A DNA stretch of 64,000 bases, taken from the NCBI GenBank assembly GCA_026416665.1, contig JAOAET010000014.1, positions 557 to 64,556 on the forward strand, in the 5' to 3' direction. A program made the position numbers and the translations under genes. Below are positions 2,840 to 30,526 of the stretch, piece by piece. The notes under the pieces are model-generated. The model saw only the letters and a program-made list of their open reading frames with translations. It made no database searches and was not told the origin of the DNA. How positions within the stretch are numbered: the stretch's first letter is position 1; the number at the start of each line of letters is the position of its first letter. Source of the DNA: Candidatus Omnitrophota bacterium (GTDB lineage: Bacteria > Omnitrophota > Gorgyraeia > Gygaellales > Profunditerraquicolaceae).

Positions 2840-2857
2840 TCTTATTCCCTTCTTAAC

Positions 2858-4102
2858 TTAATAAGAAACTGTCCCTTGCAAAACACCTTGATGTTGTTGC
2901 CTTAAGGTTTTTAAAAAACTTTCTTCTGTCTCTAAATTCCTCTCTAAATCTTTCATCTGAATTGCCAGACTTTCTTGTTCTTTAAGTAAATTTTCTGTCT
3001 CGTTCAATATTTTCTCAAACCGTTTATCACACCTTTCTGTAAGCTCTATTTCCATTAGGCGATTACGTTTTTCATTCCAGTCTTTTAACCGCTTCTCTTC
3101 TTTGAGCTGGTTGTATTCTTGCTGTTTTTTTGGTTTTTCGGCCAATTCATATCTTTTTCGTACCTCTCGTATCTGTCTTATCCATGGGCGTTGTTTCAAT
3201 ATTTCTTCTCTTTTCCTCTGACGAATAATTTCCTTTAACTTCTGTTGATGTTCTCTTTTCTTGTAAGTAGTTTCTTCTCTTATTCTTTCAAATTTATTTT
3301 GTCCTTCTTCTTGTTTATTGGCTAACAACTCTTCTCTAAGTTTATCTTCCTCTGTTCTAGTTTGCTTTATTTCCTTGTTCTTACTTTTACTTAAAATATG
3401 TCTTAGCATCTGCCTTTCTCTAATTTTAAGCTTTTTATCAATACGTTTTAACTCTCTTTTTTTTCTTGCTTCTTGCTGCAGTTTATTTTTTCTTTCTTGA
3501 TGTTCCTTTGTCAACAGATTTTTAAGTTTATCTTTTTCTTGTTTTCTTTGGGCCTTCTTTTCCTCTTCAAGTTTTCTCTCAATTTCTCTAGTTATTAAAT
3601 TTTCTTGACGTTGAATTTCCCTTAGAGCTATCTTCTGTGCTTTTTTATCTTTTAACTCTTGGTTATGTTTTAATCTTTCTTCCTTACGTTCTATTGCCAT
3701 TATTTCTTTTCGTTTTCTGACCTCTTCCTTCTTAACACGCTCCTGTTTCCTTCTCTCCTCCTGCTGCTGCCTTAACCTCTCCCTCTCCTGCTTCTTCTTC
3801 TCTATCTCTTGCCTGTATTTGACCTTCTTTTTTTGAAGTTCTTTTTCTTCCTTATCTTTTTTTTCTAATTGCCGCTGCCTTATTTTATTTGTTATTTCCC
3901 TTTCTTTTTCCAGCTGTTCTTTCTTTATTTCTTTGTACCTTGTGCGTAGAAAATTTATTTTTTCTTCTTGTAGTTTTATCTGCTCTTCTAACTGTCTTAC
4001 TGACCTAAGCAATTCTTCTTCGGAATCTGCCCAAGAAGAAAATGAAAGGGTAAAAAAGCCAAGTATAGTGAATATAAATATTAACCATCCTCTATAATTC
4101 AT
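2858..4102 (-). CDS. secreted ER/K-rich coiled-coil / single-alpha-helix protein (414 aa)
   Basis: Signal peptide MNYRGWLIFIFTILGFFTLSFSSWA followed by ~390 residues of an ER/K (KEKE-type) charged helix. Paralogous in composition to the neighbouring genes. Confidence 0.6.
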   Translation of the reverse strand: MNYRGWLIFIFTILGFFTLSFSSWADSEEELLRSVRQLEEQIKLQEEKINFLRTRYKEIKKEQLEKEREITNKIRQRQLEKKDKEEKELQKKKVKYRQEIEKKKQERERLRQQQEERRKQERVKKEEVRKRKEIMAIERKEERLKHNQELKDKKAQKIALREIQRQENLITREIERKLEEEKKAQRKQEKDKLKNLLTKEHQERKNKLQQEARKKRELKRIDKKLKIRERQMLRHILSKSKNKEIKQTRTEEDKLREELLANKQEEGQNKFERIREETTYKKREHQQKLKEIIRQRKREEILKQRPWIRQIREVRKRYELAEKPKKQQEYNQLKEEKRLKDWNEKRNRLMEIELTERCDKRFEKILNETENLLKEQESLAIQMKDLERNLETEESFLKTLRQQHQGVLQGTVSY

Positions 4103-4116
4103 AGGATAATTATTAT

Positions 4117-4803
4117 TTAACCCTTCTTCTCTGTTTCTAATTTTTCCAATATATTATTTAGTTTCTTTATCTTCGCCTCTTCTTTGTTTAACAAGGTTTC
4201 TAGCAAACGTATTTTTCGTTCCAAAGATGTTTTCTTTCTGATAAGAAATTTTAAGGTCTTAGTAGGATTTTCAGTTTGTTCCGCTCTGTTACTAAACAAA
4301 GCCTCTTCGATTACTTTTTGACGAACCGCTACCAAATCTTCAGTTTTCTGGTGGGGTATTGTAGATGGTTTAGATTGTTTACTTCTAATAACTTTTTTTC
4401 TATTCTCTTCGTGTTTCTTCTTTAAAACTTTTGTTGACGTAGGTAGGAATAATTGTTCTTTTTTCACCTCTTTTTCTTTTGTAACTAATTGCTGTCTTGA
4501 TTTAGCAGAAATATCTTTTTCTTTACTGTACTTTTCTTTTTTCTTCTCTTGTTTTGTAAGACATTCGATCTCTTTCTTTTGCTGATTGATAGACAATTCA
4601 AGCTGCTTTCTTTGATAAACGAGATTTTCTAATTTTTTTTGCAGTTGGTTCACATATCTCTGCTGTTGAACAATCTCTTCGGTCAGTTGTTTAATCTTAA
4701 ACTTCAATATTCTGGGATTTTCAGAATTAAAAGCCATGCAATTTACCAAAGCAACCTCAAAAAATAAGCCTATAAATATCAAAATTGTAATATAATTTTT
4801 CAT
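4117..4803 (-). CDS. secreted ER/K-rich coiled-coil protein (228 aa)
   Basis: Signal peptide MKNYITILIFIGLFFEVALVNCMA, then a charged K/E/Q-rich helical sequence. Third member of the tandem triplet. Confidence 0.55.
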   Translation of the reverse strand: MKNYITILIFIGLFFEVALVNCMAFNSENPRILKFKIKQLTEEIVQQQRYVNQLQKKLENLVYQRKQLELSINQQKKEIECLTKQEKKKEKYSKEKDISAKSRQQLVTKEKEVKKEQLFLPTSTKVLKKKHEENRKKVIRSKQSKPSTIPHQKTEDLVAVRQKVIEEALFSNRAEQTENPTKTLKFLIRKKTSLERKIRLLETLLNKEEAKIKKLNNILEKLETEKKG

Positions 4804-4822
4804 TGGTAATTTTTTTTATTTC

Positions 4823-6106
4823 TTAATTAAAACTCTTTTCACCCTTTAGAGTATTTTTCTCTTTTTCTAGCTGTTTGATACGTTCTTCTTCCATATTTAC
4901 AGCTTCTTGTAATTTTTTTGTCTGGTTAATTAATAATTCCTGTTTCTTTAATAGCTCGTTCCACTTAACAGCAAGTTTATTGGCTTTATCCATTTCCTTT
5001 TTCTCTCGTTCAAGTATCCTTATTTCTTCTTCTTCTCTCTCTCTCACAAAATTCCTGCTAATGCCATAGCGTTCTTGCCTAGCTATCTGAGCTATTTTCT
5101 CTTCATTTATAATAGAAGGCGAAACGAAAATAAGTAGTTCAGTTCTTTCTTTAGTATTTAGTTTTGCCTTAAATAAATTACCTAATAAAGGAATATCTCC
5201 CAAAAGAGGAATTTTGGTCTCTGACTTTACATTACGACTGCGCATCAACCCCCCAAGTATCACAGTCTGGTTACTTTTAAGAACCAACTTAGTAGAAGCC
5301 ATTCTTCGGTCAATAATGGGCACAGTATAAGGTATAGATACACCTCCACTGGCAACAGTTAAAGTGTAATCATCTATCTTTTCACTAATTTCAGGATTAA
5401 GCGTCATTAATATATCCCCATTTTCGCTGATAGTTGGCGTTACCTGCAGCATAATACCTACATCTTCAAAATGAATTGTCCAGGTAACTTGAACCGACCC
5501 AGATTCTGAAGTAGTCAGTGTAGGTTCAGCCCAAGGTAACTGCTGAACAATCCTAATTTGTGCTGGACGGTTATTTACTGTTGCTACACGAGGTGCAGAA
5601 AGTACCTCTGTATTATAACTATTGGCTAAAGCATTGATAACAACATTAATATTTTCATCAAAAATAGAAAAGGTAAAAGGTGTTTCCTCTAATGTCCCTC
5701 CTGGCTCGATAGTGTTCTTGTAAGGTATAAGCTGAGTAAGGGATTCAGGAGGAATACCCACTGTACCTGCAGTAGTGCTACCTACTTTAAAATTGCCCAC
5801 TTCTGCTCCCTCAGAATGAAACAACCGCCAATTTACTCCTAATGATTGCTGATCAGTTAACCGCACCTCTACTACCCTTGCCTCAATAAGAACCTGCGCT
5901 GGAGACACATCAATAGCTTCCAGGTACTCACTAATCCTTTTGATATTTTCAGGATAGTCCATTACCACGATAGAATTGGGTTCTTCGCCGTAAAAAACTT
6001 TTCCTTCACTAGAAAGTAAAGCGCGAATATTATTACTTACTTGTTGTGCATAGATATTCACTAATAAAATTGCTGTAATTATAACAATCAAGATGATTTT
6101 TTTCAT
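4823..6106 (-). CDS. short secretin (GspD/PilQ family): one Secretin_N domain plus secretin core, with C-terminal ER/K coiled-coil tail
   Basis: Own signal peptide. N1-like VLIEARVVEV. Secretin core VLSAPRVATVNNRPAQIRIV...IPLLGDIPLLGNLFKAKLNTKERTELLIFVSPSII. Last ~90 aa are an ER/K-rich helix (EREEEEIRILEREKKEMDKANK...). Confidence 0.85.
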   Translation of the reverse strand: MKKIILIVIITAILLVNIYAQQVSNNIRALLSSEGKVFYGEEPNSIVVMDYPENIKRISEYLEAIDVSPAQVLIEARVVEVRLTDQQSLGVNWRLFHSEGAEVGNFKVGSTTAGTVGIPPESLTQLIPYKNTIEPGGTLEETPFTFSIFDENINVVINALANSYNTEVLSAPRVATVNNRPAQIRIVQQLPWAEPTLTTSESGSVQVTWTIHFEDVGIMLQVTPTISENGDILMTLNPEISEKIDDYTLTVASGGVSIPYTVPIIDRRMASTKLVLKSNQTVILGGLMRSRNVKSETKIPLLGDIPLLGNLFKAKLNTKERTELLIFVSPSIINEEKIAQIARQERYGISRNFVREREEEEIRILEREKKEMDKANKLAVKWNELLKKQELLINQTKKLQEAVNMEEERIKQLEKEKNTLKGEKSFN

Positions 6107-6137
6107 TCTTCTACCTCTTTTTAATATTTAATCTTGC

Positions 6138-6992
6138 CTATTTGCTTGAACCACTACTAGCTGTCCCAGTAGTTGTACTAGTAGTAGTCTGCACCTGTGT
6201 TCCCGTTGGAGTAATTACTTCTGTGGTTGTAGTTATCTTTTCGGTAGCGCCTACTACCTCATCCGCCTTAAGATATTTTAGTTTAAATACCCGTGTTTCC
6301 ATTTTATGATCTACTGTCTCTAAATATTGGGCAACGCGTTTTATATTTTCAGGATAATCAATTACCGTCAAAGCATTCTTCTGTGGTACTAACAAAATCT
6401 TTCCTTTTTTGGAGAGTAATGCAAATAAACCAGAAACCTGCTGATTATCTGATGAATCGCTACCTTCTCCTTTATTAGTAGCCGTAGTAGAGACCTCAAA
6501 AAGTTTCTTGGCTTCTATATGCTTTAACACAAAAGTTTGTGTTAATAGGTTTGGCCTTACTCTTAAAAGTGTTCCTTTTTTCTCAAGGATAAGATTACTA
6601 TGTTCGGCAATGGCCTCAAGTGCCTCTTCAAGCGAGATATCCGTAAAACTTGCCGTAATTTTTCCATCTACATCTTCATCTATAAGAATATTCAAATTAT
6701 AATCATGGGCAATAACACGAAACAAATCTCCTAAATTAACATTCCTTAATTCAATAGAATAGCGAGGTGCTTCTGCTTCTAACCGTTTTATTTCCAATAC
6801 CGGTGCATTAGTTAACTCTCTGTTAATCGGTTCTTGGACTTTTTGACCTTGTTGTTGGTTTGGTTGCTGTTGAGTAGGTTGAGATTTATCCTGACCAGCT
6901 GGCTCTTGTGCTTCTATATTTCCGTAATAAAACATACAAAACAAGCATAAAAGATAAATTTTTAATCCCTTATGTCTCTGAAAAACTAACAT
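6138..6992 (-). CDS. separately encoded secretin N0–N1 domain protein with Q-rich N-terminal and T/S-rich C-terminal low-complexity segments
   Basis: Signal peptide. STN/N0-like LGDLFRVIAHDYNLNILIDEDVDGKITASFTDISLEEALEAIAEH. N1-like ALTVIDYPENIKRVAQYLETVD, paralogous to VVMDYPENIKRISEYLEAID of the downstream secretin. Ends TTTTEVITPTGTQVQTTTSTTTGTASSGSSK. Confidence 0.6.
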   Translation of the reverse strand: MLVFQRHKGLKIYLLCLFCMFYYGNIEAQEPAGQDKSQPTQQQPNQQQGQKVQEPINRELTNAPVLEIKRLEAEAPRYSIELRNVNLGDLFRVIAHDYNLNILIDEDVDGKITASFTDISLEEALEAIAEHSNLILEKKGTLLRVRPNLLTQTFVLKHIEAKKLFEVSTTATNKGEGSDSSDNQQVSGLFALLSKKGKILLVPQKNALTVIDYPENIKRVAQYLETVDHKMETRVFKLKYLKADEVVGATEKITTTTEVITPTGTQVQTTTSTTTGTASSGSSK

Positions 6993-7004
6993 CCTATCTC
7001 CTTC

Positions 7005-9017
7005 TTACCGCCGTGTAGATAAAAATACACGTATAACCTCATCAATTAGTCGGATATCCGCTATATCTTGTATCCCAAGAATATCTAGGCTATCATTTGT
7101 TATTTTTAGCGCATAACAACGTTTGTTTGGGAAGCTTAAAAAATCCGCTTGTTGTTTCTTCTCTTCTTTTAATGCCAAACCAAATTTTTGGGAAAGCATT
7201 TTCTTAAATGCCTCAGCATAAGAAACAGCATCGTTGAGTGTTTTCCATTTAATCTGTAACAGAAATAAGCGATTACCGTTATTATGTCTGTATATTGAAA
7301 TTTTATCGTTTTGCCAAGCACCACAGATTTCTTCTGCTTCCTCTTTGGGCAGAATCTGGCGTAAAGTCATTAAAAGGTAAAACTCACCTATACTATCTTC
7401 ATATTCTTTATGCCAGCCTTCCGGAAAAGTTAATACGTTGACCTCTTCCTTCTGTTGGGCAGATTTATCTGCTAAAGACTGTTCAGTAACCGAGCGATAT
7501 GGATGTAACAGTTGCTGTGTGGTAGAAGGCGGTTTGGCAAACAATTTATCCAAATCATTCCATTGTTTATCACTAAGGTAATATTGAATATAATTAGCAC
7601 CATATCCATATAAACTGTATTGCAACTTATCTATTGTCTCTTTATTGTCTTTTAATATCTTATTCTCGATTAAATCAAAGATATCCCCCAAAGATTTGAA
7701 ACTCTTTCCATCCTTACTTAATATATACTCTAGTTGAATAGCTTTTGCCTCGCCTTCTAAAAGCATATTTAAGGCAGTGATATTATCTTGCGAAAGCTTA
7801 TCTTTATTTATTCCAAGTATCTCTGGTGAATAGTAAGTATGTTGATAAGCATGTACGAGTTCATGAACTAAAACCGTTTCTGCTAACTCAGGACTAAGCC
7901 ACTGCCCTAAGAAAATCTTTTTCCTCTGTTTACTATACAAACCAGCAACAGAAGCTATTAAAGAATCAACCAACATCTCACGGTAATTTATTGCCTGCGG
8001 AACTAATCCCAACCATTTCAGAATCTCTTCTTGAATAGCAAAATATTCTGTATTATATTCTTTTTCAAGGTCCTCTAAAACATAAGAACGTAAACTTACT
8101 CTATCTATAAATTCAATCCCAAAATCCTCAAATGGCTTCCATCCACGTAACTGAGTAATCCATTGAATTAAGGTAGGAATCTTCTGTTTTATTTTTTCTC
8201 TCTCACCTAATACCTCTTGTTGAATATCTGAAGGCACATCAAATTTCTCTGTTGGATTTTGTTTCTGATAATGATTAAGTTGTAAAAAATACATCCCATT
8301 GATTTTTCCTTCAATTCGCGCCAAAACTGTAAAAAAATCTGTAGTATCTATCCAGATAGTCTTAGTAAGTTGTCCGCTTATACCTTTTTCTTCTAAGATC
8401 TTTGGGTTAATTGTGTAACGTAAAACATAACACTTCTTTCCAAAACGTTCTTCTATTGCCAGTATTTCTTTAGTAACAGGTTCTGCCTCTTCTTGTTGGA
8501 CATAAAAAAGAGATTGTAAAAACTGATACGTCAATATTTCATTTTTATCTTTATCAGATATTTGCAGCTTTTCTCTTTGCCATTTTCTTTTTTGCGCATC
8601 CCAAACAAAAGAAAGACCGTCGTAATCATACCCTTGCGCCCAGTCAGCAGTAGAGATGCCATAAGGCACAGTTAAAGAAACACTGATTTTGGTATCTGTT
8701 TTTATATTTTCGAGTCTATCTATCAGATCCTTACTATTTACTCTTATATGAAACAACTCATGTCCCAACCAAACATCAGAAATAACTATAAACTTAGGAG
8801 TTTGCAAAAACGCACTGGCTGTTTTATATAAAAGATAGTCTGAATCTATTTGGGTATTTAATGGTAACCATGAAGTATTTTTACCTCTCTGCTGTTGTTG
8901 GGCTATCTCACTTAAATATTGTCTCAGTTGCACCGCCTCCCACCCTAACAAAAAAGGTAAGCATAAGAGTAAGTAGAATTTTCTTTTAATTTTTTCTTTT
9001 ATGGGCTTAACCATCAA
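7005..9017 (-). CDS. secreted HExxH zinc-metallopeptidase-like protein (MA-clan, gluzincin-like), 670 aa
   Basis: N-terminal hydrophobic signal or anchor (FYLLLCLPFLLGW). HELVHAYQH motif followed ~30 aa later by LLEGEAKAI, a candidate third Glu ligand. No recognisable named peptidase family. Confidence 0.45.
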   Translation of the reverse strand: MMVKPIKEKIKRKFYLLLCLPFLLGWEAVQLRQYLSEIAQQQQRGKNTSWLPLNTQIDSDYLLYKTASAFLQTPKFIVISDVWLGHELFHIRVNSKDLIDRLENIKTDTKISVSLTVPYGISTADWAQGYDYDGLSFVWDAQKRKWQREKLQISDKDKNEILTYQFLQSLFYVQQEEAEPVTKEILAIEERFGKKCYVLRYTINPKILEEKGISGQLTKTIWIDTTDFFTVLARIEGKINGMYFLQLNHYQKQNPTEKFDVPSDIQQEVLGEREKIKQKIPTLIQWITQLRGWKPFEDFGIEFIDRVSLRSYVLEDLEKEYNTEYFAIQEEILKWLGLVPQAINYREMLVDSLIASVAGLYSKQRKKIFLGQWLSPELAETVLVHELVHAYQHTYYSPEILGINKDKLSQDNITALNMLLEGEAKAIQLEYILSKDGKSFKSLGDIFDLIENKILKDNKETIDKLQYSLYGYGANYIQYYLSDKQWNDLDKLFAKPPSTTQQLLHPYRSVTEQSLADKSAQQKEEVNVLTFPEGWHKEYEDSIGEFYLLMTLRQILPKEEAEEICGAWQNDKISIYRHNNGNRLFLLQIKWKTLNDAVSYAEAFKKMLSQKFGLALKEEKKQQADFLSFPNKRCYALKITNDSLDILGIQDIADIRLIDEVIRVFLSTRR

Positions 9018-9436
9018 TTCTTATTATTTTCCTCTTGTGACTGAGACTTCAAAATACTGCTTACTTTTATAACGTATTCTCCAACACTATCTTTTAACCT
9101 AATTTCTTCTGGTTTGATATTGGTAATCTCTTTATTATCTACATAATCGCCTATTTTCAATATCCTCCCATTGACAATAACACAGCTTTTTCCAGCATCA
9201 GGCGCATATATAATGGCAGTAATATTAAATCCATCTAAAGGAATAGCCGTTCCTTGTTCCTGAAATAATTTTTCTTCGTCACTGGTAAGAAAAGGATTCT
9301 CTTTACCTTTTAAGATAATAGGCCCTTTCTCCACAGTAACCTCAGTTTGAGTAAAAGAAAAAACCATAAGTAAATTAGAAAAAGTTAAAGTTGTGGTTAC
9401 ACCGATAATCTTTATAAGAAGACTTAATCTAGCCAA
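9014..9436 (-). CDS. PilP/GspC-like small periplasmic protein
   Basis: N-terminal membrane anchor. C-terminal beta-rich segment with VIVNGRILKIGDYV, resembling PilP/GspC secretin-interacting domains. 4-nt overlap with the downstream gene. Confidence 0.35.
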   Translation of the reverse strand: MARLSLLIKIIGVTTTLTFSNLLMVFSFTQTEVTVEKGPIILKGKENPFLTSDEEKLFQEQGTAIPLDGFNITAIIYAPDAGKSCVIVNGRILKIGDYVDNKEITNIKPEEIRLKDSVGEYVIKVSSILKSQSQEENNKN

Positions 9437-9620
9437 GATGCCCCCTCATTATTTCTTTTAGTTTTTTTAAGTCATCCTCAGTGTATTGACGCCAGCGGTT
9501 AATAAGATTTCTTCGTGCTTTAGGAAAAATTCCTTTTTTCTCGTAGCGGAACAGGGTTTGTTTAGAGATTCCAAGTCTCTCAGCTACTTCCTGTGCAGTA
9601 AACATTTTGCTCTCACTCAT
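9429..9620 (-). CDS. small helix-turn-helix DNA-binding protein (MerR/excisionase HTH_17-like)
   Basis: FTAQEVAERLGISKQTLFRYEKKGIFP is a canonical HTH. 63 aa. SD-like AAGGTAGG upstream of the ATG. Confidence 0.6.
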   Translation of the reverse strand: MSESKMFTAQEVAERLGISKQTLFRYEKKGIFPKARRNLINRWRQYTEDDLKKLKEIMRGHLG

Positions 9621-9721
9621 ATAACCTACCTTTCTGAGAAAAATTACTGTTTTATTTTCTTTAAAATAGCATTTTACCAGTATCCCTTATTGTTTAATAT
9701 TCTACTTCTGTTAAAACTGAT

Positions 9722-9747
9722 AATACTTGATAGTATTTGATAGTATT
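9722..9747. repeat. operator-like repeat: inverted repeat AATACT-tgat-AGTATT followed by a tandem direct repeat of TGATAGTATT (x2)
   Basis: Read directly from the sequence in the 185-nt intergenic region upstream of the HTH gene. Confidence 0.5.
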
Positions 9748-9805
9748 GTAAACTACCAGATATAAATTGTCAAGATTTAATTTTTTATAATCCCTTTATT
9801 TTTAT

Positions 9806-10639
9806 TTAGTTAGAAAAAAGACGCACTAATAATTTTCTATCCTCTGCCGTCAGATTATTAATTCGAATCCCTAGCAAATAATTTTTATAGTTTACCATCG
9901 TGCTGCGCAGGATTTCTCCTTTTGCCTCTATTACACAAGTTTCAAACCCACATTTTTCGAACCCATAGAGTGTAAAGGAAACATATATATGAGGTGGTAA
10001 AAATAAAGGCATCTCTGCTCCTAAAGCAGAACAATCCGCCGAAACATTTAAAACTTTTCCTTCAATAACTCTGGGAGCAAACAATTTAACTTCTTCATCA
10101 ACAAGAGTAAGCTGTATTTTACCAGAAACAGGTAATCTATCTGCCTCTCGCCATTGACTAACCCCACTTAAAGGATTATGCTTAATAAGATATCTAGTGA
10201 TTTCAAAATTCTGTTCATCAAGTTTGTAATAGAGATCTATAGCAGCTAAAATTTCGTGAGTAGTAGCAACCACCGGCTCAATCGTTAATCCTGTAATTTT
10301 GGAAACATCGTCAATAAGAGCTGCGTTTAAAGGATTAGCACATGCTAAAAACAAAGTATTGCCTACCTTATATAAGGGAAAAACCTTATTTTGTAAACAA
10401 TAATTTTCTTCTAAAAGATGAAGCACATGTGGCGAAATTGCATAATCAGAAATACGTACAAATGCAAAACCACCCATTTGTGCAAAGAAACAAGCCAGCT
10501 GTTCTTCTGATAAAAACCCTAATTTTACCAGACATATCCAAATAGATTTTTTACTGGTGGTGGCTTCAAGGCGAGCAACATCAAGCTGCCATTGTTCAAT
10601 CCATTTGTTCTCTAATAACTCTTTTTCGAGATCTAACAT
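9806..10639 (-). CDS. T2SSE_N (GspE N-terminal-like) domain fused to a PilZ c-di-GMP-binding domain
   Basis: N-terminal region is T2SSE_N-like (LVKLGFLSEEQLACFFAQ...VFPLYKVGNTLFLACANPLN). C-terminal region has canonical PilZ motifs RxxxR (READR, residues 164–168) and DxSxxG (DCSALG, 202–207). Confidence 0.6.
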   Translation of the reverse strand: MLDLEKELLENKWIEQWQLDVARLEATTSKKSIWICLVKLGFLSEEQLACFFAQMGGFAFVRISDYAISPHVLHLLEENYCLQNKVFPLYKVGNTLFLACANPLNAALIDDVSKITGLTIEPVVATTHEILAAIDLYYKLDEQNFEITRYLIKHNPLSGVSQWREADRLPVSGKIQLTLVDEEVKLFAPRVIEGKVLNVSADCSALGAEMPLFLPPHIYVSFTLYGFEKCGFETCVIEAKGEILRSTMVNYKNYLLGIRINNLTAEDRKLLVRLFSN

Positions 10640-10648
10640 AAATTAAAG

Positions 10649-11875
10649 TTACTTCTTAAATAACTGTATCATATTCCATAATGGTAAAAAAATAGCCAGT
10701 GCCATACCCATTACTACCACCCCCAAAACAGCTGTCATCAAGGGTTCAATTAATGCCGTGAGATTTTTTACCGTAGTTCGCACTTCCAGCCCGAAGTATT
10801 CACATAAAGAATCTAACATCAAAGGTAATTGTCCACTTTTTTCTCCTACCGACACCATATAACCAACTAACCTTGGAAAAAACTTACTGTTAAGGATACC
10901 TCCAGATATACCCTTTCCATCTGCAACTGCTCGTTTAATAATATTAACCTCATTCTCTAACACAACATTACCAATCGTCATTCCTACAATCTCTAACGTC
11001 CTTAGAATAGGTAAACCAGATTGGTATAAAACATTTAACATACTGGCAAACCGTAACATAGTTATTTTAGTATAAAGTTTACCAAAGATAGGGATTTTAA
11101 ACTTTAAGCTATCCCAAAAATTACGCCCAAAAGCAGTTTTAATAAAAACGCGCCATAATAATGAAAATACACCAATACCTGCTATAACCGCATACCAATA
11201 ATGGCGTAAAATGTGTCCAAATAAAATCATTATTTGTGTGGGTAAAGGCAGTTGGGTGTTGGCCTGGGCATAAATTTTGGCAAACTGGGGCATAACAAAT
11301 ACTGTCAATACCACCACCGCCACAATCATAGCAATTACTACCATAATAGGATATCGTAAAGCCGCTGATATATTGGAACGTGTCTCTAAATCTTCTTCTA
11401 ACATCTCTGCCAAACGCATCAGAACCTTATCTAAAATTCCTGCACTCTCCCCCGCTATCACGGTATTTACATAAAGTTCAGAGAATATACCTGGATGCTT
11501 TGCCAATGCCTGAGATAAACTTGTTCCTGCCTCTACATCGCGTAAAATTTCTTGTAGCGCTTTTTTTAATGCAAGATCTTCTGCCTGTTCAGCAAGTACT
11601 CCCAATCCTTCTAAAATAGGCACCGCTGCTTTAATGATAGTGGCAAATTGCCGAGTGAATATCACCAATGTGCGCATATCCACTGTGCCGTGGGTTTTCT
11701 TACCTGCTCCAGAAACACCTTTTTTAATTTGTGTTTTTGCCTTAAAAGTGATACTCACAGGTAAATATCCTTTTTTTGCTAATTCAGTAGTTAAAGCCAT
11801 TTCACTGGTAGCTTCCATTTCCCCTTTCACGTATTTTCCCTGACTATCTACTGCTTTATATATATACCAAGTCAT
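10649..11875 (-). CDS. PilC/GspF inner-membrane platform protein
   Basis: 408 aa. Typical N-terminus (YKAVDSQGKYVKGEMEA), two T2SSF repeats and TM helices. Confidence 0.85.
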   Translation of the reverse strand: MTWYIYKAVDSQGKYVKGEMEATSEMALTTELAKKGYLPVSITFKAKTQIKKGVSGAGKKTHGTVDMRTLVIFTRQFATIIKAAVPILEGLGVLAEQAEDLALKKALQEILRDVEAGTSLSQALAKHPGIFSELYVNTVIAGESAGILDKVLMRLAEMLEEDLETRSNISAALRYPIMVVIAMIVAVVVLTVFVMPQFAKIYAQANTQLPLPTQIMILFGHILRHYWYAVIAGIGVFSLLWRVFIKTAFGRNFWDSLKFKIPIFGKLYTKITMLRFASMLNVLYQSGLPILRTLEIVGMTIGNVVLENEVNIIKRAVADGKGISGGILNSKFFPRLVGYMVSVGEKSGQLPLMLDSLCEYFGLEVRTTVKNLTALIEPLMTAVLGVVVMGMALAIFLPLWNMIQLFKK

Positions 11876-11898: not shown

Positions 11899-13716
11899 CT
11901 ACTTTCTATTACTTAACCAATTGGCAATGCGCTTTTCATAAGCAGCTATCTGAGATTCATCCACTTTTACTGGTTGCTGAGATAAAGTACTTGCAGGCGG
12001 AGAAGGAATTGCTGGACCAACAAGAATTTCCTCAGAAGTTGATCGTAAATCAAGATGTTCTTCGCAAACCCTAGCTACTTCTTCCAAAGTGGTTATACCT
12101 TGCAATACCTTTGATAAACCATCTTCACTTAGGAGTTTCATCCCTTTTGCTTGCGATTTTTTACGTAACTGCACAGTAGATGCACCCGCAATAATCATTT
12201 CTCTAATCTCATCATCCACCACCATTAGTTCAAATAATCCGGTTCGTCCGCGATAACCTGTCCCTTTACAATAATCACAACCCTTTCCCCTGTATAAACG
12301 AATATTCTTCTTATGGCTTAATCCCCATTTTTCCAAAACTGCCTTCGTTGGTTCATATGACTCCTTACAATGTTCACAGATAACCCTTACCAACCTTTGT
12401 GCCATAACTCCAATAAGAGAAGCTGAGATTAAAAAGGACTCCACTCCCATATTAACTAAACGCGTTACTGCTGAGGGTGCATCATTGGTGTGCAAAGTAG
12501 AAAAGACTAGATGTCCAGTTAAGGCAGCCTGAATAGCAATAACTGCTGTCTCTAAATCTCTTATCTCTCCGACCATAATTACATCAGGATCTTGACGCAG
12601 AATTGCCCTTAAACCATTTGCGAAGGTAATTCCTGCCTTAACATTTACCTGTATTTGTCGAATCAGTCCGAGACGGTATTCTACAGGGTCTTCAATTGTA
12701 ATGATATTACGGTCAATAGTGTTGATGCGCATAAGGGCTGAATATAAAGTGGTAGTCTTTCCACTACCTGTTGGACCAGTGGAGAGAATAATTCCGTACG
12801 GTCGCGAGATAAGCTCTTCATACCGCTTAAGCATATCTTGGGTAGAAAACCCTAATTTTTCCAGCCCAATCATTACTGAGGCAGTATCCAAAAGCCGAAT
12901 CACCACATTCTCTCCATAAATAGTGGGAATGGTTGAAACACGAAAATCAATAATTTTATCATCTATCTTTGACTGAAAATGGCCATCCTGGGGAATTCTA
13001 CTTTCCGCTATATCCATACCTGCCAACACCTTAATGCGTGAGATAATTGCTCCTTCCCAATCTTTAGGGGGAGGCGGTATTTCATGAAGGATACCGTCAA
13101 TTCTAAAACGAATTCTTAGAATTTCTTGTTCTGGTTCAATATGTATATCCGATGCCCTGTCACGAACCGCTTGTGAGATAATTAAATCTACTAATTTTAT
13201 AATTGAAGCTCCTTCTTGAGCAGATTTGGCAGTGGCAGAGGAAACTGCTACTTGAGCATAGTCAGTCATAAGCTTTTCGTCTTGGGGCCTGCGTTTATAC
13301 ACTTTAATACGCGCCTCTTCTATATCTTCGGGACTGGCCAAATAGGGCTCTACATGAAGACCAGTTTGCATCTTTATTTGGTCAATAGAAAAAATATCCC
13401 CTGGATCCACCATTGCTACGTGAAGCACTCCTTGCTCCAAACGAAATGGTACAGACTGGGTCTCAGTAGCTAAGGATTCAGGCATACGTTCTATCATTTC
13501 TTCGGGTGCTTTAACAACATCTAATTTAACGAAGTTAAATCCAAGTTTTCTGGCAATGGCCTCATAGAGTTTGTGGCGATTGACCAACCCCATCTCTACC
13601 ACTACCTTTACTAGTGGACGTCTCAGTTTCTTAATCTCCTCTTGTGCCTTATCTAAATTTTCCTGACTGATTAATTCCTCCGAGATAAGTAGTTGGGCTA
13701 ACTCCATGTCGTTCAT
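11899..13716 (-). CDS. GspE/PilB-family type IV filament assembly ATPase (ATPase 2)
   Basis: Walker A GPTGSGKTTT and tetracysteine CEHC...CDYC. N-terminal T2SSE_N domain without the MshEN motif. Confidence 0.9.
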   Translation of the reverse strand: MNDMELAQLLISEELISQENLDKAQEEIKKLRRPLVKVVVEMGLVNRHKLYEAIARKLGFNFVKLDVVKAPEEMIERMPESLATETQSVPFRLEQGVLHVAMVDPGDIFSIDQIKMQTGLHVEPYLASPEDIEEARIKVYKRRPQDEKLMTDYAQVAVSSATAKSAQEGASIIKLVDLIISQAVRDRASDIHIEPEQEILRIRFRIDGILHEIPPPPKDWEGAIISRIKVLAGMDIAESRIPQDGHFQSKIDDKIIDFRVSTIPTIYGENVVIRLLDTASVMIGLEKLGFSTQDMLKRYEELISRPYGIILSTGPTGSGKTTTLYSALMRINTIDRNIITIEDPVEYRLGLIRQIQVNVKAGITFANGLRAILRQDPDVIMVGEIRDLETAVIAIQAALTGHLVFSTLHTNDAPSAVTRLVNMGVESFLISASLIGVMAQRLVRVICEHCKESYEPTKAVLEKWGLSHKKNIRLYRGKGCDYCKGTGYRGRTGLFELMVVDDEIREMIIAGASTVQLRKKSQAKGMKLLSEDGLSKVLQGITTLEEVARVCEEHLDLRSTSEEILVGPAIPSPPASTLSQQPVKVDESQIAAYEKRIANWLSNRK

Positions 13717-17372: not shown

Positions 17373-17981
17373 TTAGCCAAAAATAGCGCTTAAAAGAATT
17401 GTTGTTTGTAAATTAACCCAACCAACGTTTGTCTCTTTTCCTTTTGATTCTGCTGTAGGTAACTGCTCTATTCTTACAATACTCAATGACTCTACTTGAA
17501 AAGGCACACTAAGAATTTTTAGTTCGTCTAAAAACTTGCCTATTTGCTGATAATTACTTTCAAATACCACTTCAATATAAACCTTTTCTACTCGTTGGGG
17601 TAATGGTCCCTGGTTTATATCTTCTCTGGGTTTAAGCAAAACTAGTTTTAGCTGTTGTTCATTGGCAAGACTATTGATAATCTGCATAAGTTTAGGAATT
17701 TGTTTTTTTACTGAACCTTGAGTTTGAAACTCCGCCACTTTTGCCCGCAAAGAATTGATAGCTTCTTGCGGATTAGGAACAAGTCTCACCAGTTCTTGAG
17801 CCTCTTGCACCAGACGCTGATTTTGTGAGAATTCTCTGCGAACCCGTTGGGAATAACGTTTAATTGGCCTTCCTACCAGAAAATGAACCAATAAAGTCAA
17901 TAGAAGAAATACGCTACTAAAGATTATTAACCCTTGTATTTTTCCAGAAGGAAGTTTCATCTTTAATATATAAGTTGACAA
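17373..17981 (-). CDS. PilO/GspM-like protein
   Basis: Single N-terminal TM plus coiled coil plus C-terminal domain. Position between the PilMN fusion and PilP. Confidence 0.5.
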   Translation of the reverse strand: MSTYILKMKLPSGKIQGLIIFSSVFLLLTLLVHFLVGRPIKRYSQRVRREFSQNQRLVQEAQELVRLVPNPQEAINSLRAKVAEFQTQGSVKKQIPKLMQIINSLANEQQLKLVLLKPREDINQGPLPQRVEKVYIEVVFESNYQQIGKFLDELKILSVPFQVESLSIVRIEQLPTAESKGKETNVGWVNLQTTILLSAIFG

Positions 17982-30052: not shown

Positions 30053-30526
30053 CTACTCTTTGACATAGCTAGAAAGGATATCCATTATATCTTGTTTTCT
30101 TACTTTTCCGTAGACTTTATCATCAATCATCATTACTGGTGCTAAACCACAGCATCCTAAACAGCGCACAACATTAAGTTGAAAATTCCCATCTTTGGTT
30201 GTTTGCCCCTCTTCAATATGCAATATATTTTTTATCTCTTTAATAAGCTCTGGAGCACCCTTAAGATAACAGGCAGTTCCCATACACACACTAATACGAT
30301 GTTTACCCGGTGCGGAAAGTTTAAAATAGTTATAAAAGGTAAGCACTTCATAAATACGTGCTAGAGGGATATCTAAAAGTGCAGAGACATCTAAAGCTAC
30401 CTGACGCGGCACATAGCCGTGGTGATTCTGTATCTCATGGAGAATCATAATAAGATTCCCCTCTTTATCTTTCCATCTCTCTACTAACTGTTTTACCTCA
30501 TCAGTTAATAAGGTATGTCTTTCCAT
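30053..30526 (-). CDS. hydC: NuoE-like [2Fe-2S] subunit of hydrogenase (HydC/HndA)
   Basis: CMGTACYLKGAPEL...CLGCCGLAPVMMID. Confidence 0.8.
   Translation of the reverse strand: MERHTLLTDEVKQLVERWKDKEGNLIMILHEIQNHHGYVPRQVALDVSALLDIPLARIYEVLTFYNYFKLSAPGKHRISVCMGTACYLKGAPELIKEIKNILHIEEGQTTKDGNFQLNVVRCLGCCGLAPVMMIDDKVYGKVRKQDIMDILSSYVKE

What the first reader, a model, noticed from the sequence alone, without database searches (positions are those of the whole stretch)
9806..10639. T2SSE_N–PilZ fusion protein immediately downstream of PilC and PilB
The N-terminal ~150 aa resemble the N-terminal domain of GspE/PilB ATPases, without an ATPase core. The C-terminus carries canonical PilZ motifs (READR...DCSALG). 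A free-standing ATPase-N-domain mimic coupled to a c-di-GMP sensor could compete for, or bridge, the ATPase docking site on the platform (PilM/GspL/PilC) in a c-di-GMP-dependent way. It is not a standard component of described T2SS or T4aP gene sets.
Basis: partly seen in the sequence, partly recalled or inferred. Interest (0 to 1): 0.55.

Follow-up and report, generated by a model that had tools for sequence, protein, structure and literature searches.

The report
ATPase-less MshEN–PilZ pilus accessory protein
The last gene of a type IV pilus operon in an Omnitrophota bacterium encodes the docking domain of a pilus motor ATPase fused to a PilZ c-di-GMP sensor; this undescribed, phylum-restricted protein probably puts a motor that lost its own c-di-GMP site back under c-di-GMP control.

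Summary
The ORF is real. It lies on the minus strand (9806..10639, 277 aa), 9 nt after pilC, and is the last gene of a pilMN…pilB–pilC operon in a Ca. Omnitrophota MAG. Residues 1–147 form a complete MshEN/GSPII fold (Pfam E 7e-20; Foldseek vs MshE TM 0.81) with no ATPase core. Residues 164–276 form a PilZ barrel with a C-terminal helix. RxxxR (R164/R168) is invariant in 32 family representatives. The true second motif is N198-V-S-A-D-C203, with Cys replacing the usual Gly.

The MshEN c-di-GMP motifs are degenerate across the family (Ser and Trp replace Arg and Gly), so PilZ is the likely sensor. The co-operonic PilB also lacks the motif in 6 of 6 genomes. A second ATPase downstream has an essentially perfect motif in 3 of 3. 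The N-domain keeps the aromatic residues through which Xanthomonas PilB binds its PilZ, and AF2 pTM (0.78, 0.77) implies the two domains pack together.

The best reading is a free-standing PilB-N:PilZ regulatory module that docks on the PilM/N platform under c-di-GMP control. All named members are Omnitrophota, all 11 loci examined are pilus-linked, and no held paper describes the architecture. It is a new variant of a known kind. The mechanism is inferred, not shown.

The parts
9806..10639 (-). MshEN–PilZ fusion gene (called MZ here), 277 aa, last gene of the pilB1–pilC operon
   Evidence: ORF. Pfam MshEN plus PilZ. 100% identical to NCBI MAG protein N2606_00880 of Ca. Omnitrophica. AF2 pLDDT 84.3.
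10469..10639 (-). ND0 / MshEN_N four-helix sub-domain (aa 1-57) with both 24-residue c-di-GMP motifs degenerate. S32-I-W34 (10538..10546) replaces the R-L-G of motif II.
   Evidence: Helices H4-10, 16-29, 33-39 and 45-56. Motif score 16/22, with S32 in 29/32 and an aromatic at position 34 in 31/32 family members. NF053729 scores 19.5 bits against a cutoff of 38. Ser at this position abolishes binding in PilF GSPII-A (PMC12002112).
10199..10468 (-). ND1 / MshEN_C alpha/beta sub-domain (aa 58-147), carrying the aromatic patch Y66, Y90, F97 and E121
   Evidence: PF05157 covers aa 59-142. Foldseek matches 5htl and 7lkm. In the alignment to X. citri PilB, F77/F101/F108/E132 correspond to Y66/Y90/F97/E121. 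Family conservation is 32/32, 27/32, 29/32 and 23/32, against 1/8 and 0/8 aromatic at positions 90 and 97 in other PilB N-domains.
10145..10198 (-). Low-confidence interdomain linker (aa 148-165) that leads into RxxxR
   Evidence: pLDDT <50 for aa 148-165. The distant member P0043 has an equivalent disordered linker at aa 142-165.
10136..10150 (-). PilZ motif 1, R164-E-A-D-R168 (RxxxR)
   Evidence: Invariant in 32/32. Aligned to RNSHR of the BcsA PilZ domain and RNAFR of PP4397. Coordinates checked.
9812..10150 (-). PilZ domain (aa 164-276): beta-barrel (strands 168-260) plus C-terminal helix 265-276
   Evidence: PF07238 at 21.2 bits. 26/32 family members match PilZ, best E 1.3e-14. Foldseek 4xrn TMt 0.81, 5y6g YcgR, BcsA, Alg44.
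10031..10048 (-). True PilZ motif 2, N198-V-S200-A-D-C203 ([D/N]xSxxG with Gly replaced by Cys)
   Evidence: Profile alignment to DLSMGG and DISATG of solved PilZ domains. Column counts. Coordinates.
10019..10036 (-).
   Evidence: S204 is conserved in only 9/32 and D202 in 17/32. Register established.
10649..11875 (-). PilC/GspF platform protein, 9 nt upstream of MZ
   Evidence: PF00482 E 6e-56; TIGR02120 and PilC models.
11899..13716 (-). PilB1, the extension-type ATPase of the operon; it has its own MshEN-fold N-domain but a degenerate c-di-GMP motif
   Evidence: PF00437 plus PF05157. NF053729 scores 32.9, below the cutoff of 38. Motif score 16/22 here and 15-17/22 in 5 orthologues; shuffled sequences reach at most 17.
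17963..19756 (-). PilM–PilN fusion (GspL-like layout), the inferred docking partner of ND1-type domains
   Evidence: PF11104 PilM_2 plus PF05137 PilN; TIGR01175; Amuc_1101 family. ND1–GspL/EpsL complexes as described in PMC8389850.
9745..9773 (-). Sigma-70-like promoter (TTGACA-17-TACAAT, 11/12) between the MZ stop codon and the next gene. It makes MZ the terminal gene of operon 1.
   Evidence: This is a consensus match only.
9429..9620 (-). 63-aa MerR/HTH_17-like protein, first gene of the downstream module; conserved next to MZ in class A1 loci
   Evidence: ORF. Conserved neighbour with MerR Pfam hits in L001, L003, L032 and the P0006 contig.
5..1696 (-). ATPase2, a second PilB/GspE-type ATPase, with a perfect tandem MshEN c-di-GMP motif (aa 13-65, nt 1502..1660)
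   Evidence: PF00437 plus PF05157. Motif 22/22. NF053729 scores 65.4 bits, above the cutoff of 38. Orthologues score 22/22 and 21/22.

Best explanation
MZ is a c-di-GMP-responsive accessory subunit of the type IV pilus / T2SS-like machine encoded upstream. In effect it is a free-standing, single-chain version of the 'PilB N-domain : PilZ' regulatory module known from Xanthomonas, cut loose from the ATPase.

Shown:
- MZ has a complete MshEN-fold N-domain (ND0+ND1), a roughly 18-residue flexible linker that ends in RxxxR, and a canonical PilZ barrel.
- The MshEN-type c-di-GMP pocket is absent across the family.
- The PilZ signature residues are conserved.
- The co-operonic motor PilB1 also lacks the MshEN c-di-GMP motif, while the neighbouring ATPase2 has it intact.

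Inferred:
1. PilZ, together with the RxxxR linker, is the only c-di-GMP sensor in MZ.
2. The PilZ barrel packs in cis on the aromatic face of ND1 (Y66/Y90/F97), the same face that X. citri PilB uses to bind its PilZ. c-di-GMP binding at the linker re-sets this clamp, as in two-domain PilZ effectors such as YcgR and PlzD.
3. The other face of ND1, which in GspE/EpsE binds GspL/EpsL, docks MZ on the PilM–N ring. MZ thereby gates or modulates access of PilB1 (and possibly ATPase2) to the PilM/PilC platform. This gives a motor that has lost its cis sensor a c-di-GMP input in trans.

The sign of the effect is not determined. I lean towards occupancy or competition at PilM sites in one of the two ligand states.
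For: Architecture and fold:
- Pfam MshEN E 6.7e-20 and PilZ 21.2 bits.
- AF2 pLDDT 84.3, with only the linker (aa 148-165) disordered.
- Foldseek: MshE 5htl TMt 0.81, X. citri PilB-N 7lkm, PilZ 4xrn TMt 0.81, YcgR, BcsA.

Sensor assignment:
- R164/R168 are invariant in 32/32; position 198 is D/N in 32/32; position 200 is S/T in 31/32. The register was fixed against solved PilZ domains.
- MZ members score 14-18 of 22 on the MshEN motif. Every MZ member lacks Gly at motif position 3 and carries Ser/Thr/Asn at position 1 of motif II. Shuffled controls average 12.4 (maximum 17), and PilB N-domains of other phyla score 19-22.
- NF053729 scores 19.5 bits against a cutoff of 38.
- In PilF GSPII-A, Ser at this Arg position abolishes c-di-GMP binding and Gly-to-Ala weakens it 10-30 fold (PMC12002112).

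Division of labour:
- PilB1 orthologues next to MZ score 15-17/22 in 6/6 genomes, and the window PilB1 scores 32.9 bits, below the cutoff of 38.
- ATPase2 orthologues score 21-22/22 in 3/3, and the window ATPase2 scores 65.4 bits.

Cis docking:
- X. citri PilB F77/F101/F108/E132 lie at the PilZ interface, and the F101A/F108A double mutant abolishes the complex (PMC8389850). These residues align to Y66/Y90/F97/E121.
- The aromatic residues are conserved in 32/32, 27/32 and 29/32 of the family. Other PilB N-domains are aromatic at positions 90 and 97 in 1/8 and 0/8. PilB1 has R/K/R and H/F/H there.
- pTM is 0.78 for the window protein and 0.77 for a member only 22% identical, despite 18-24 disordered linker residues. 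By my calculation from the pTM formula, unpacked domains would give about 0.55.

Pilus linkage:
- A 9-nt gap separates MZ from pilC, and a promoter follows the MZ stop codon.
- 11/11 family loci are T4P-linked: after pilB–pilC, next to a pilin gene, or in front of pilS/pilR-like genes and a pilin gene.

c-di-GMP signalling in the lineage:
- A REC-GGDEF gene lies 5 kb from MZ in L035.
- The window also holds STAS-PilZ and ComFB-CheR genes.
- GGDEF and pilZ genes are reported in Omnitrophota (10.1101/2023.11.21.568195).
Against: - No interaction has been shown. Docking on PilM/N is transferred from GspE–GspL/EpsE–EpsL structures of distant homologues.
- AF2 coordinates and PAE were not available, so cis packing rests on pTM arithmetic and on conservation of three aromatic positions.
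- The window protein has Cys instead of the motif Gly and falls 1.3 bits under the Pfam PilZ threshold. Its own affinity for c-di-GMP is therefore uncertain.
- No diguanylate cyclase or phosphodiesterase is encoded in the 64-kb window.
- The MZ N-domain is only 23-24% identical to the PilB1 N-domain and is not derived from it. Specific mimicry of PilB1 is not supported at sequence level.
- In the distant clades the gene sits next to pilS/pilR-like regulators or chemosensory genes, not next to the motor.
- The high conservation of S32/W34 could mean a re-purposed ND0 pocket rather than a dead one.
Confidence: 0.5

Rival explanations
1. MZ is a trans-acting activator or chaperone of PilB1, working like Xanthomonas PilZ–FimX. 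It binds the PilB1 hexamer directly, for example by N-domain hetero-association or through its PilZ domain, and at high c-di-GMP it recruits, stabilises or stimulates the ATPase. It does not occupy PilM sites.
For: PilB1 lacks the cis c-di-GMP motif in 6/6 genomes in which MZ is adjacent. In X. citri, PilZ–FimX promotes PilB localisation and ATPase activity, and PilZ solubilises the PilB N-domain (PMC8389850 and PMC11656802). MZ is co-transcribed with pilB1 and pilC.
Against: The PilB1 ND1 lacks the aromatic pair that X. citri PilB uses to bind PilZ (R/K/R and H/F/H at positions 90 and 97). That patch is on MZ itself. High pTM suggests the MZ PilZ domain is already engaged in cis. No precedent for ND0/ND1 hetero-dimerisation was examined here.
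Confidence: 0.22
2. MZ is a constitutive structural adaptor that does not sense c-di-GMP. Its PilZ domain would be a 'type II' protein-binding PilZ, like P. aeruginosa or X. citri PilZ, at least in the window organism, and MZ would simply be an extra fixed subunit of the pilus base.
For: The window protein has Cys203 instead of the motif Gly and scores 21.2 against the 22.5-bit PilZ gathering threshold. 10/32 family members lack the Gly. No c-di-GMP turnover gene is in the window. Non-binding PilZ proteins that bind PilB N-domains are well documented (PMC11656802).
Against: RxxxR is invariant in 32/32, D/N198 in 32/32 and S/T200 in 31/32 across sequences as low as 22% identical. This is the pattern expected if ligand binding is under selection. 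Type II PilZ proteins lack these motifs (PMC11656802). Other c-di-GMP receptors are encoded alongside MZ.
Confidence: 0.12
3. The ND0 sub-domain is re-purposed, not dead. The conserved S32-x-W34/E5/G41 pocket binds a different small ligand, or c-di-GMP in a new mode, which would make MZ a dual-input sensor.
For: The residues replacing the MshEN motif are themselves strongly conserved: S32 in 29/32, an aromatic at position 34 in 31/32, G41 in 28/32 and E5 in 24/32. Simple decay would not give this pattern. [quoted passage not shown]
Against: Ser at motif II position 1 causes complete loss of binding, and even Ala at the Gly position costs 10-30 fold, in PilF GSPII-A (PMC12002112). Trp is bulkier still. 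Conservation may instead reflect a protein–protein surface or fold stabilisation. No ligand candidate was identified.
Confidence: 0.08
4. MZ acts mainly on pilin expression or chemosensory signalling, not on the motor. For example, it might couple c-di-GMP to a PilS/PilR-like two-component system.
For: In clade B, MZ lies directly upstream of a PilS-like HAMP-PAS kinase (7 nt away in L033), a sigma54 PilR-like regulator and pilin genes. In L034 it sits between REC and PilZ genes, a pilin gene and a Che cluster.
Against: In 8 of 11 loci, including the window, it directly follows pilC (or a small ORF after pilC) in the motor operon. Its only non-sensor domain is a motor-ATPase docking fold. No DNA-binding or kinase-interaction domain is present.
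Confidence: 0.08

Closest known systems
Xanthomonas citri PilB(ND0/ND1)–PilZ(–FimX) regulatory complex (PDB 7LKM/7LKO; PMC8389850)
   Same: Both have an MshEN-fold N-domain whose ND0 lacks the c-di-GMP motifs, paired with a PilZ-fold domain. The ND1 residues at the PilZ interface (F77, F101, F108, E132) align to conserved Y66, Y90/F, F97 and E121 of MZ. In both cases c-di-GMP control of a T4P extension motor is supplied in trans, not by the ATPase's own N-domain.
   Different: In Xanthomonas the N-domain is part of the ATPase and PilZ is a separate, non-binding (type II) protein that relays c-di-GMP sensing from the FimX EAL domain. In MZ the N-domain is detached from any ATPase and covalently fused to PilZ, and the PilZ domain carries canonical RxxxR and D/NxSxx(G) motifs. 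No FimX-like gene is present in the window.
MshE/PilB2/PilF-type MshEN (GSPII) c-di-GMP receptor domains (PDB 5HTL, 8PDK; PMC5013675)
   Same: The same two-sub-domain fold (Foldseek TMt 0.81 to 5htl), also associated with a T4P/T2SS motor.
   Different: The defining tandem 24-residue c-di-GMP motif is not met (16/22; NF053729 at 19.5 against 38 bits). There is no ATPase, glycosyltransferase or receiver output domain. MZ behaves like the non-binding PilF GSPII-A or XpsE N-domains.
Two-domain PilZ effectors YcgR / PlzD (VCA0042) / MotI that act on a motor
   Same: The layout is the same: an N-terminal target-binding domain, a linker containing RxxxR, and a C-terminal PilZ barrel. The PilZ domain matches 5y6g, 2rde and 5vx6 structurally. 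The expected logic, c-di-GMP-driven re-orientation of the two domains that controls engagement with a motor, is also the same.
   Different: The N-terminal domain is an MshEN fold borrowed from the pilus ATPase, not PilZN/YcgR_N. The presumed target is a T4P/T2SS platform, not the flagellar stator or rotor.
Non-ATPase MshEN proteins (E. coli NfrB GT2–MshEN, M. xanthus FrgA, P. aeruginosa PA3740, Bdellovibrio Bd2402)
   Same: These also use an MshEN domain outside a secretion ATPase (PMC5013675; MZ gives a weak NfrB model hit).
   Different: In those proteins MshEN is the c-di-GMP sensor for another output domain. In MZ the MshEN pocket is lost and a second, different receptor domain (PilZ) is attached.

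Membership tests
MshEN / GSPII (T2SSE_N, PF05157) domain | Two-sub-domain fold: a four-helix ND0 (MshEN_N) plus an alpha/beta ND1 (MshEN_C) | tested here: met
   PF05157 E 6.7e-20. TIGR02538 N-terminus aligned over aa 4-144. AF2 helices and strands as expected, pLDDT >90. Foldseek 5htl TMt 0.81, 7lkm, 8pdk.
MshEN / GSPII as a c-di-GMP receptor | [quoted passage not shown] | tested here: not met
   MZ scores 16/22. D3/E5/K12/A26 and S32/W34/M55 occupy the key positions. The whole family scores 14-18/22; shuffled sequences reach at most 17, and positive controls score 19-22. NF053729 scores 19.5, below 38.
GspE/PilB secretion ATPase | N2 plus C-terminal RecA-like ATPase core (PF00437, Walker A/B, Zn-binding motif) | tested here: not met
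   No PF00437 hit. The protein ends at residue 277 after the PilZ domain. All 32 family representatives are 269-292 aa long.
Canonical (c-di-GMP-binding) PilZ domain, PF07238 | Six-stranded beta-barrel followed by a C-terminal helix | tested here: met
   AF2 strands 168-260 and helix 265-276. Foldseek 4xrn TMt 0.81, 5y6g, 4rt0, 4i86, BcsA.
Canonical (c-di-GMP-binding) PilZ domain, PF07238 | RxxxR motif in the flexible segment preceding the barrel | tested here: met
   R164-E-A-D-R168, invariant in 32/32. Aligned to RNSHR and RNAFR of solved PilZ domains. It lies at the end of the low-pLDDT linker.
Canonical (c-di-GMP-binding) PilZ domain, PF07238 | [D/N]xSxxG motif on the barrel | tested here: inconclusive
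   The window protein has N198-V-S200-A-D-C203: D/N and S are present but Gly is replaced by Cys. In the family, D/N is 32/32, S/T 31/32, and position 203 is G in 22, A in 5, C in 4 and Y in 1. Whether Cys is tolerated is unknown.
Canonical (c-di-GMP-binding) PilZ domain, PF07238 | Score above the Pfam gathering threshold | tested here: not met
   The window protein scores 21.2 bits against 22.5. 26/32 family members match at E<=0.01, best 1.3e-14.
Canonical (c-di-GMP-binding) PilZ domain, PF07238 | Binding of c-di-GMP | not testable with these tools
   Requires ITC, DRaCALA or thermal shift on purified protein.
X. citri-type PilB N-domain : PilZ module | ND0 without c-di-GMP motifs, plus the hydrophobic PilZ-binding patch on ND1 (F77, F101, F108; E132) | tested here: met
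   Alignment to 7lkm/7lko gives Y66, Y90, F97 and E121.
X. citri-type PilB N-domain : PilZ module | Physical ND1–PilZ contact through that patch | not testable with these tools
   Only indirect support: pTM 0.78 and 0.77 with disordered linkers. Model coordinates and PAE are not returned.
X. citri-type PilB N-domain : PilZ module | A non-binding type II PilZ partner that relays from a FimX (GGDEF-EAL) c-di-GMP receptor | tested here: not met
   The PilZ domain here keeps RxxxR and D/NxS. No GGDEF or EAL protein was found in the window.
YcgR/PlzD-type PilZN–PilZ effectors | N-terminal PilZN/YcgR_N domain | tested here: not met
   The N-terminal domain is MshEN, and there is no PilZN hit. Only the linker-RxxxR-PilZ layout is shared.

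The most novel reading that the evidence does not exclude
MZ is a c-di-GMP-operated arbiter between two extension motors that share one platform. The 22-kb cluster encodes two PilB-type ATPases but only one PilC and one PilM–N. In the related locus L032 the second module also contains no PilC or PilM. PilB1 cannot sense c-di-GMP, whereas ATPase2 has a perfect MshE-type site. The ATPase-less N-domain protein encoded between them would occupy or release PilM docking sites according to c-di-GMP level, switching the machine between PilB1-driven and ATPase2-driven modes. A variant of this reading is that MZ fills the six PilM sites left vacant by a PilB hexamer in a 12-mer PilM ring, forming a sensor collar.
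Probability: 0.12. Interest if true: 0.75.

Novelty: new variant of a known kind. Interest (0 to 1): 0.5.

Why it matters
How c-di-GMP reaches type IV pilus and type II secretion motors differs between lineages. In MshE and PilB2 the sensor is the ATPase's own MshEN domain. In Xanthomonas and Pseudomonas it is supplied in trans by PilZ–FimX.

MZ would be a third solution. The ATPase's docking domain is duplicated, stripped of both the ATPase and the MshEN ligand site, and fused to a canonical PilZ.

If the cis ND1–PilZ contact is real, the fusion acts as a 'Rosetta stone'. It would show that the PilB-N:PilZ interface, so far known only from Gammaproteobacteria, is ancient and widespread.

MZ would also be a compact, soluble tool for studying how ATPase N-domains engage the PilM/GspL ring, an open question in the field (PMC11656802).

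Finally, it adds a pilus-specific c-di-GMP effector to Omnitrophota. These are ultra-small, probably host-dependent bacteria in which pili and T2SS-like systems are thought to mediate attachment and predation (10.1101/2023.11.21.568195).

Tried and rejected
- **Truncated pilB paralogue or pseudogene with a chance PilZ-like tail.** Rejected. About 32 clusters at 50% identity keep the same 269-292-aa layout, the PilZ fold is confidently predicted, and RxxxR is invariant.
Rejected: it is out of register by 4 residues.
- **N-domain as a recent copy of PilB1 or ATPase2.** Rejected. In a neighbour-joining tree it forms its own clade. Identity is 23% to PilB1, 29% to ATPase2 and about 30-33% to PilB N-domains of other phyla.
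- **Same architecture outside this family.** Ten other short MshEN proteins among the top profile hits were scanned. They are tandem MshEN proteins, PilB fragments or MshEN plus an unknown region; none has PilZ. All named family members are Omnitrophota.
- **Genome scan with the 32-sequence alignment.** The scan with A1 returned only 2 full-length loci and otherwise PilB N-domains.
- **Second word-index search with A2.** It added little: P0161, and P0043 became usable for context look-up.
- **Chimeric AF2 runs (MZ plus PilM, or MZ plus PilB1).** Not attempted. The tool returns no coordinates or PAE, so an interface could not be evaluated.
- **c-di-GMP turnover genes.** Regex and Pfam scans of most ORFs of at least 120 aa, though not all of them (for example 30053..30526, 157 aa), found no GGDEF, EAL or HD-GYP gene in the window.
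- **Terminator after MZ.** None found.
- **Literature.** No held paper contains 'MshEN-PilZ'. The final J Bacteriol version of Galperin & Chou 2020 is not held.
Full report
**1. What is at the coordinates**

Window 9806..10639 holds an intact ORF on the minus strand: ATG start, 277 aa. Read on the plus strand the region is full of stop codons.

In the direction of transcription the ORF follows a PilB/GspE-type ATPase and a PilC/GspF platform protein, with only 9 nt between the pilC stop codon and its own ATG:
- PilB1 (11899..13716): PF00437 E 2.5e-140.
- PilC (10649..11875): PF00482 E 6e-56.

Further upstream on the same strand lie the rest of a T4P/T2SS-like machine:
- a TPR protein and a coiled-coil protein;
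- a secretin;
- a GspC/PilP-like protein and PilO;
- a 597-aa PilM–PilN fusion;
- a set of pseudopilin-like genes.

Downstream of the ORF there is a 185-bp spacer. It contains a near-consensus sigma-70-type promoter (TTGACA-17-TACAAT). A 63-aa MerR/HTH_17-like gene and a second secretion module follow. The finding is therefore the terminal gene of the pilB1–pilC operon.

The protein is 100% identical to a hypothetical protein of a Candidatus Omnitrophica MAG. The window has 36.5% G+C.

**2. Domain identities**

*N-terminal domain.*
- Pfam gives MshEN (PF05157, formerly T2SSE_N) at E 6.7e-20 for aa 59-142.
- NCBIfam aligns aa 4-144 with positions 2-142 of the PilB model TIGR02538.
- PDB sequence search finds the N-domains of Geobacter PilB, Thermus PilF, Myxococcus PilB, X. 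citri PilB (7LKM/7LKO) and V. cholerae MshE.
- No ATPase domain is present.

*C-terminal domain.* Pfam gives PilZ (PF07238) for aa 164-275, at 21.2 bits against a gathering score of 22.5.

*Structure prediction.* An AF2 model built on a 32-sequence family alignment has mean pLDDT 84.3 and pTM 0.78. It shows:
- four helices (ND0, aa 1-57);
- an alpha/beta sub-domain (ND1, up to about aa 147);
- a low-confidence linker (aa 148-165);
- a beta-barrel (aa 168-260) and a terminal helix (aa 265-276).

Foldseek against the PDB matches the N-half to MshE-c-di-GMP (5htl, TMt 0.81), X. citri PilB-N and PilF GSPII domains. It matches the C-half to PilZ domains of a P. aeruginosa protein (4xrn, TMt 0.81), YcgR, BcsA, Alg44, MotI and PlzD. 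No solved chain contains both domains.

**3. The PilZ motifs**

R164-E-A-D-R168 is a genuine RxxxR. It is invariant in all 32 family representatives and aligns with RNSHR of the BcsA PilZ domain and RNAFR of PP4397.

The same profile alignment puts the family consensus 'DiSadG' opposite 'DLSMGG' and 'DISATG' of the solved domains. In the window protein that is N198-V-S200-A-D-C203.

Column counts confirm this:

| Position | Residues in the 32 family members |
|---|---|
| 198 | D or N in 32 |
| 200 | S or T in 31 |
| 203 | G in 22, A in 5, C in 4, Y in 1 |

The family is therefore a canonical, presumably ligand-binding PilZ. The window protein belongs to a small sub-clade with Cys in place of the motif Gly, which leaves its own affinity uncertain.

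**4. The MshEN half is not a c-di-GMP receptor**

MshEN is itself a widespread c-di-GMP receptor. It binds the ligand through two tandem 24-residue motifs in ND0 (PMC5013675). I scored the published relaxed motif, which has 22 specified positions:

| Sequence set | Score out of 22 |
|---|---|
| MZ, window protein | 16 |
| All 32 MZ family members | 14-18 |
| Shuffled N-termini | mean 12.4, maximum 17 |
| PilB N-domains from 11 other-phylum loci | 19-22 |

Every family member lacks the Gly at position 3 of both motifs and carries Ser/Thr/Asn instead of Arg/Lys at position 1 of motif II. In the window protein these residues are S32 and W34. NCBIfam's MshE-related c-di-GMP motif model scores MZ at 19.5 bits against a cutoff of 38.

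Experiments on the non-binding PilF GSPII-A domain bear directly on this. Ser at exactly this Arg position causes complete loss of binding, and Ala at the Gly position costs 10-30 fold (PMC12002112).

The replacing residues are themselves conserved: S32 in 29/32 and an aromatic at position 34 in 31/32. I therefore keep a re-purposed pocket as a minor rival.

**5. A division of labour between the two ATPases**

The co-operonic PilB1 also fails the motif. It scores 16/22, and 32.9 bits against the cutoff of 38 for NF053729. Its orthologues next to MZ in five other genomes score 15-17/22.

The second ATPase at the end of the downstream module (window 5..1696) matches perfectly. It scores 22/22 with the sequence KIGELLIEKGLITPSQLNEALMEQ-5-KLGEIIVRRGWASREAVEKCLNMQ, and NF053729 gives 65.4 bits. 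Its orthologues score 22/22 and 21/22.

So the motor that shares an operon with MZ has lost cis sensing, while the neighbouring motor keeps it.

The downstream module in the window contains:
- a T2SSB-like protein;
- an HExxH protein;
- a split secretin;
- three signal-peptide coiled-coil proteins;
- ATPase2.

It has no recognisable PilC or PilM. In L032 it is reduced further and still lacks both.

**6. The family and its genomic contexts**

An exhaustive profile search of 1.84 billion representatives found about 32 full-length members (269-292 aa, E 1e-120 to 1e-27). All remaining hits match only the MshEN part. Every member that carries a source name is from Omnitrophota. Pfam finds MshEN in 32/32 members and PilZ in 26/32. 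Ten other short MshEN proteins among the hits have no PilZ.

Contexts fall into four classes:

| Class | Loci | Gene order |
|---|---|---|
| A1 | window, L001, L003, L005, P0006 contig, L032 | …pilB1–pilC–MZ–merR-like–second module |
| A2 | L035, L036 | …pilB–AAA_22–pilC–small ORF–MZ–pilin, with a REC-GGDEF gene 5 kb away in L035 |
| B | L030, L033 | MZ–PilS-like kinase–PilR-like sigma54 regulator–pilin(s) |
| C | L034 | kinase–PilZ–REC–MZ–pilin, near a Che cluster with PilM-like, ComFB and CheR genes |

All 11 loci are pilus-linked.

**7. A link to the Xanthomonas PilB–PilZ complex**

X. citri PilB has an ND0/ND1 N-domain that lacks the c-di-GMP motifs and binds the small PilZ protein through a hydrophobic ND1 surface. 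F77, F101, R103, F108 and E132 lie at that interface, and the F101A/F108A double mutant abolishes the complex. The GspL/EpsL (PilM-like) binding face of ND1 is on a different side (PMC8389850).

The HMMER alignment of MZ to chains 7lkm/7lko reads 'PLYKVGNTLFLACANP' opposite 'PLFKRGNRLFVGVSNP'. The P70S difference between the two entries fixes the numbering. The correspondence and its conservation are:

| X. citri PilB | MZ | MZ family | Other-phylum PilB N-domains | PilB1 orthologues |
|---|---|---|---|---|
| F77 | Y66 | Y/F 32/32 | mixed (S/F/V/M) | V/V/L |
| F101 | Y90 | aromatic 27/32 | aromatic 1/8 | R/K/R |
| F108 | F97 | aromatic 29/32 | aromatic 0/8 | H/F/H |
| E132 | E121 | E 23/32 | mostly E | E/E/E |

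MZ therefore carries, on its own N-domain, the patch that Xanthomonas PilB uses to hold a PilZ domain. It also has a PilZ domain tethered to that N-domain by about 18 flexible residues.

AF2 gives pTM 0.78 for the window protein and 0.77 for a member only 22% identical, even though 18-24 linker residues are disordered. From the pTM formula (d0 about 6 Å for this length), two well-folded but unpacked domains of 147 and 110 residues would give roughly 0.55. A value of 0.78 requires an inter-domain predicted error of about 4 Å. This is my calculation; the PAE itself is not returned.

I read the fusion as a single-chain PilB-N:PilZ module. This is an inference that needs coordinates to confirm.

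**8. Mechanism**

Shown: the architecture, the motif status of MZ, PilB1 and ATPase2, the operon position, and the conserved aromatic patch.

Inferred:
- c-di-GMP binds the RxxxR linker and the barrel.
- This re-sets the ND1–PilZ clamp, as in YcgR/PlzD-type effectors.
- The free face of ND1 docks on the PilM–N (GspL-like) ring, by analogy with the EpsE–EpsL and GspE–GspL structures.
- Occupancy of those sites modulates engagement of PilB1, and perhaps ATPase2, with the single PilC/PilM–N platform.

The M. xanthus-based model cited in PMC8389850 has 12 PilM around 6 PilB. Free ND1 domains could therefore add to the motor's own N-domains instead of competing with them. The sign of regulation is open.

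Rivals are set out in the Rival explanations section: a direct PilB1 activator, a non-sensing adaptor, a re-purposed ND0 pocket, and a PilS/PilR-directed role.

**9. Comparison and novelty**

MZ has the MshEN fold but fails the feature that defines the MshEN receptor. It is a canonical-type PilZ by fold and by RxxxR/D-N/S residues, but the window copy has Cys for Gly and a sub-threshold Pfam score. It is not a GspE/PilB ATPase.

MZ resembles three known kinds of system without being a member of any:
- the X. citri PilB-N:PilZ(:FimX) module, in its parts and its ND1 patch;
- YcgR-type two-domain PilZ effectors, in its layout;
- non-ATPase MshEN proteins such as NfrB, FrgA and PA3740 (PMC5013675), except that here the sensing role has moved from MshEN to PilZ.

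Databases already label some members 'PilZ domain-containing protein' and carry both Pfam hits. No held paper mentions the architecture, and the reviews of PilB cofactors and PilZ architectures consulted do not list it.

I rate it a new variant of a known kind. It is phylum-restricted and of moderate interest. Its most attractive features are the Rosetta-stone-like support for an ancient PilB-N:PilZ interface and the two-motor, one-platform arrangement.

Noticed in passing
window 5..1696 (-), motif at 1502..1660; compare 11899..13716 (-): The cluster holds two PilB/GspE-type ATPases with opposite c-di-GMP status. ATPase2 has a perfect tandem MshEN motif (22/22; NF053729 65.4 bits). PilB1 is degenerate (16/22; 32.9 bits, below the cutoff of 38). 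The pattern repeats in orthologous loci L001, L003, L005, L032, L035 and L036.
   Followed up: yes
window 1697..9436 (-): The second secretion module contains a T2SSB/CdsD_C-like 140-aa protein and a secretin split into an N0/N1-only protein (6138..6992) and a core secretin (4823..6106). It also has three signal-peptide, extremely K/E/R/Q-rich coiled-coil proteins (228, 414 and 380 aa, with no family hits). No recognisable PilC or PilM is present, so ATPase2 may have to share the upstream platform.
   Followed up: partly
window 7005..9017 (-): A 670-aa protein with an HExxH motif (VHELVHAYQH) gives weak hits to DUF6782, Peptidase_M91 and the Hvo_1808 family. Orthologues in L032 and the P0006 contig are annotated DUF8575. 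It is present in the second module of some loci and absent from L001 and L003. It may be a substrate or accessory of that module.
   Followed up: no
window 53612..54334 (-): A STAS–PilZ fusion protein (240 aa) with a canonical PilZ domain (54 bits; RxxxR…NLSGIG). It sits between a Kdo-transferase gene and a HAD hydrolase gene, and is another unusual c-di-GMP receptor architecture in the same contig.
   Followed up: partly
window 22893..24035 (+) and 24050..25126 (+): A ComFB–CheR fusion is followed by a second CheR gene, transcribed divergently from the pseudopilin genes. ComFB is a recently defined c-di-NMP receptor family, and ComFB–CheR fusions in Omnitrophota are already noted in PMC12448109. 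L034 has separate ComFB and CheR genes beside a PilM-like gene and a Che cluster near its MZ gene.
   Followed up: partly
window 9700..9773 (-): Directly after the near-consensus promoter upstream of the 63-aa MerR/HTH_17-like gene there are short direct repeats (ACTATCAA ATACTATCAA GTATTATCA). They could be an operator for that small regulator.
   Followed up: no
window 17963..19756 (-): PilM and PilN are fused into one 597-aa protein with a GspL-like layout, related to the Amuc_1101 family of Akkermansia. The fusion is conserved in L001, L032 and L035.
   Followed up: no
MZ aa 213-217 (window 9989..10003) and aa 257: Family-specific conserved residues lie on the PilZ barrel outside the canonical motifs: an 'FLPxG' motif (P215 in 31/32, L214 in 25/32) and G257 (30/32). 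Their role is unknown. They may form part of an interaction surface.
   Followed up: no
L034 952..1882: In one family locus a stand-alone 121-aa PilZ protein and a receiver-domain protein lie immediately upstream of the MZ gene. The aromatic ND1 patch of MZ might therefore also receive a separate PilZ protein in trans.
   Followed up: no
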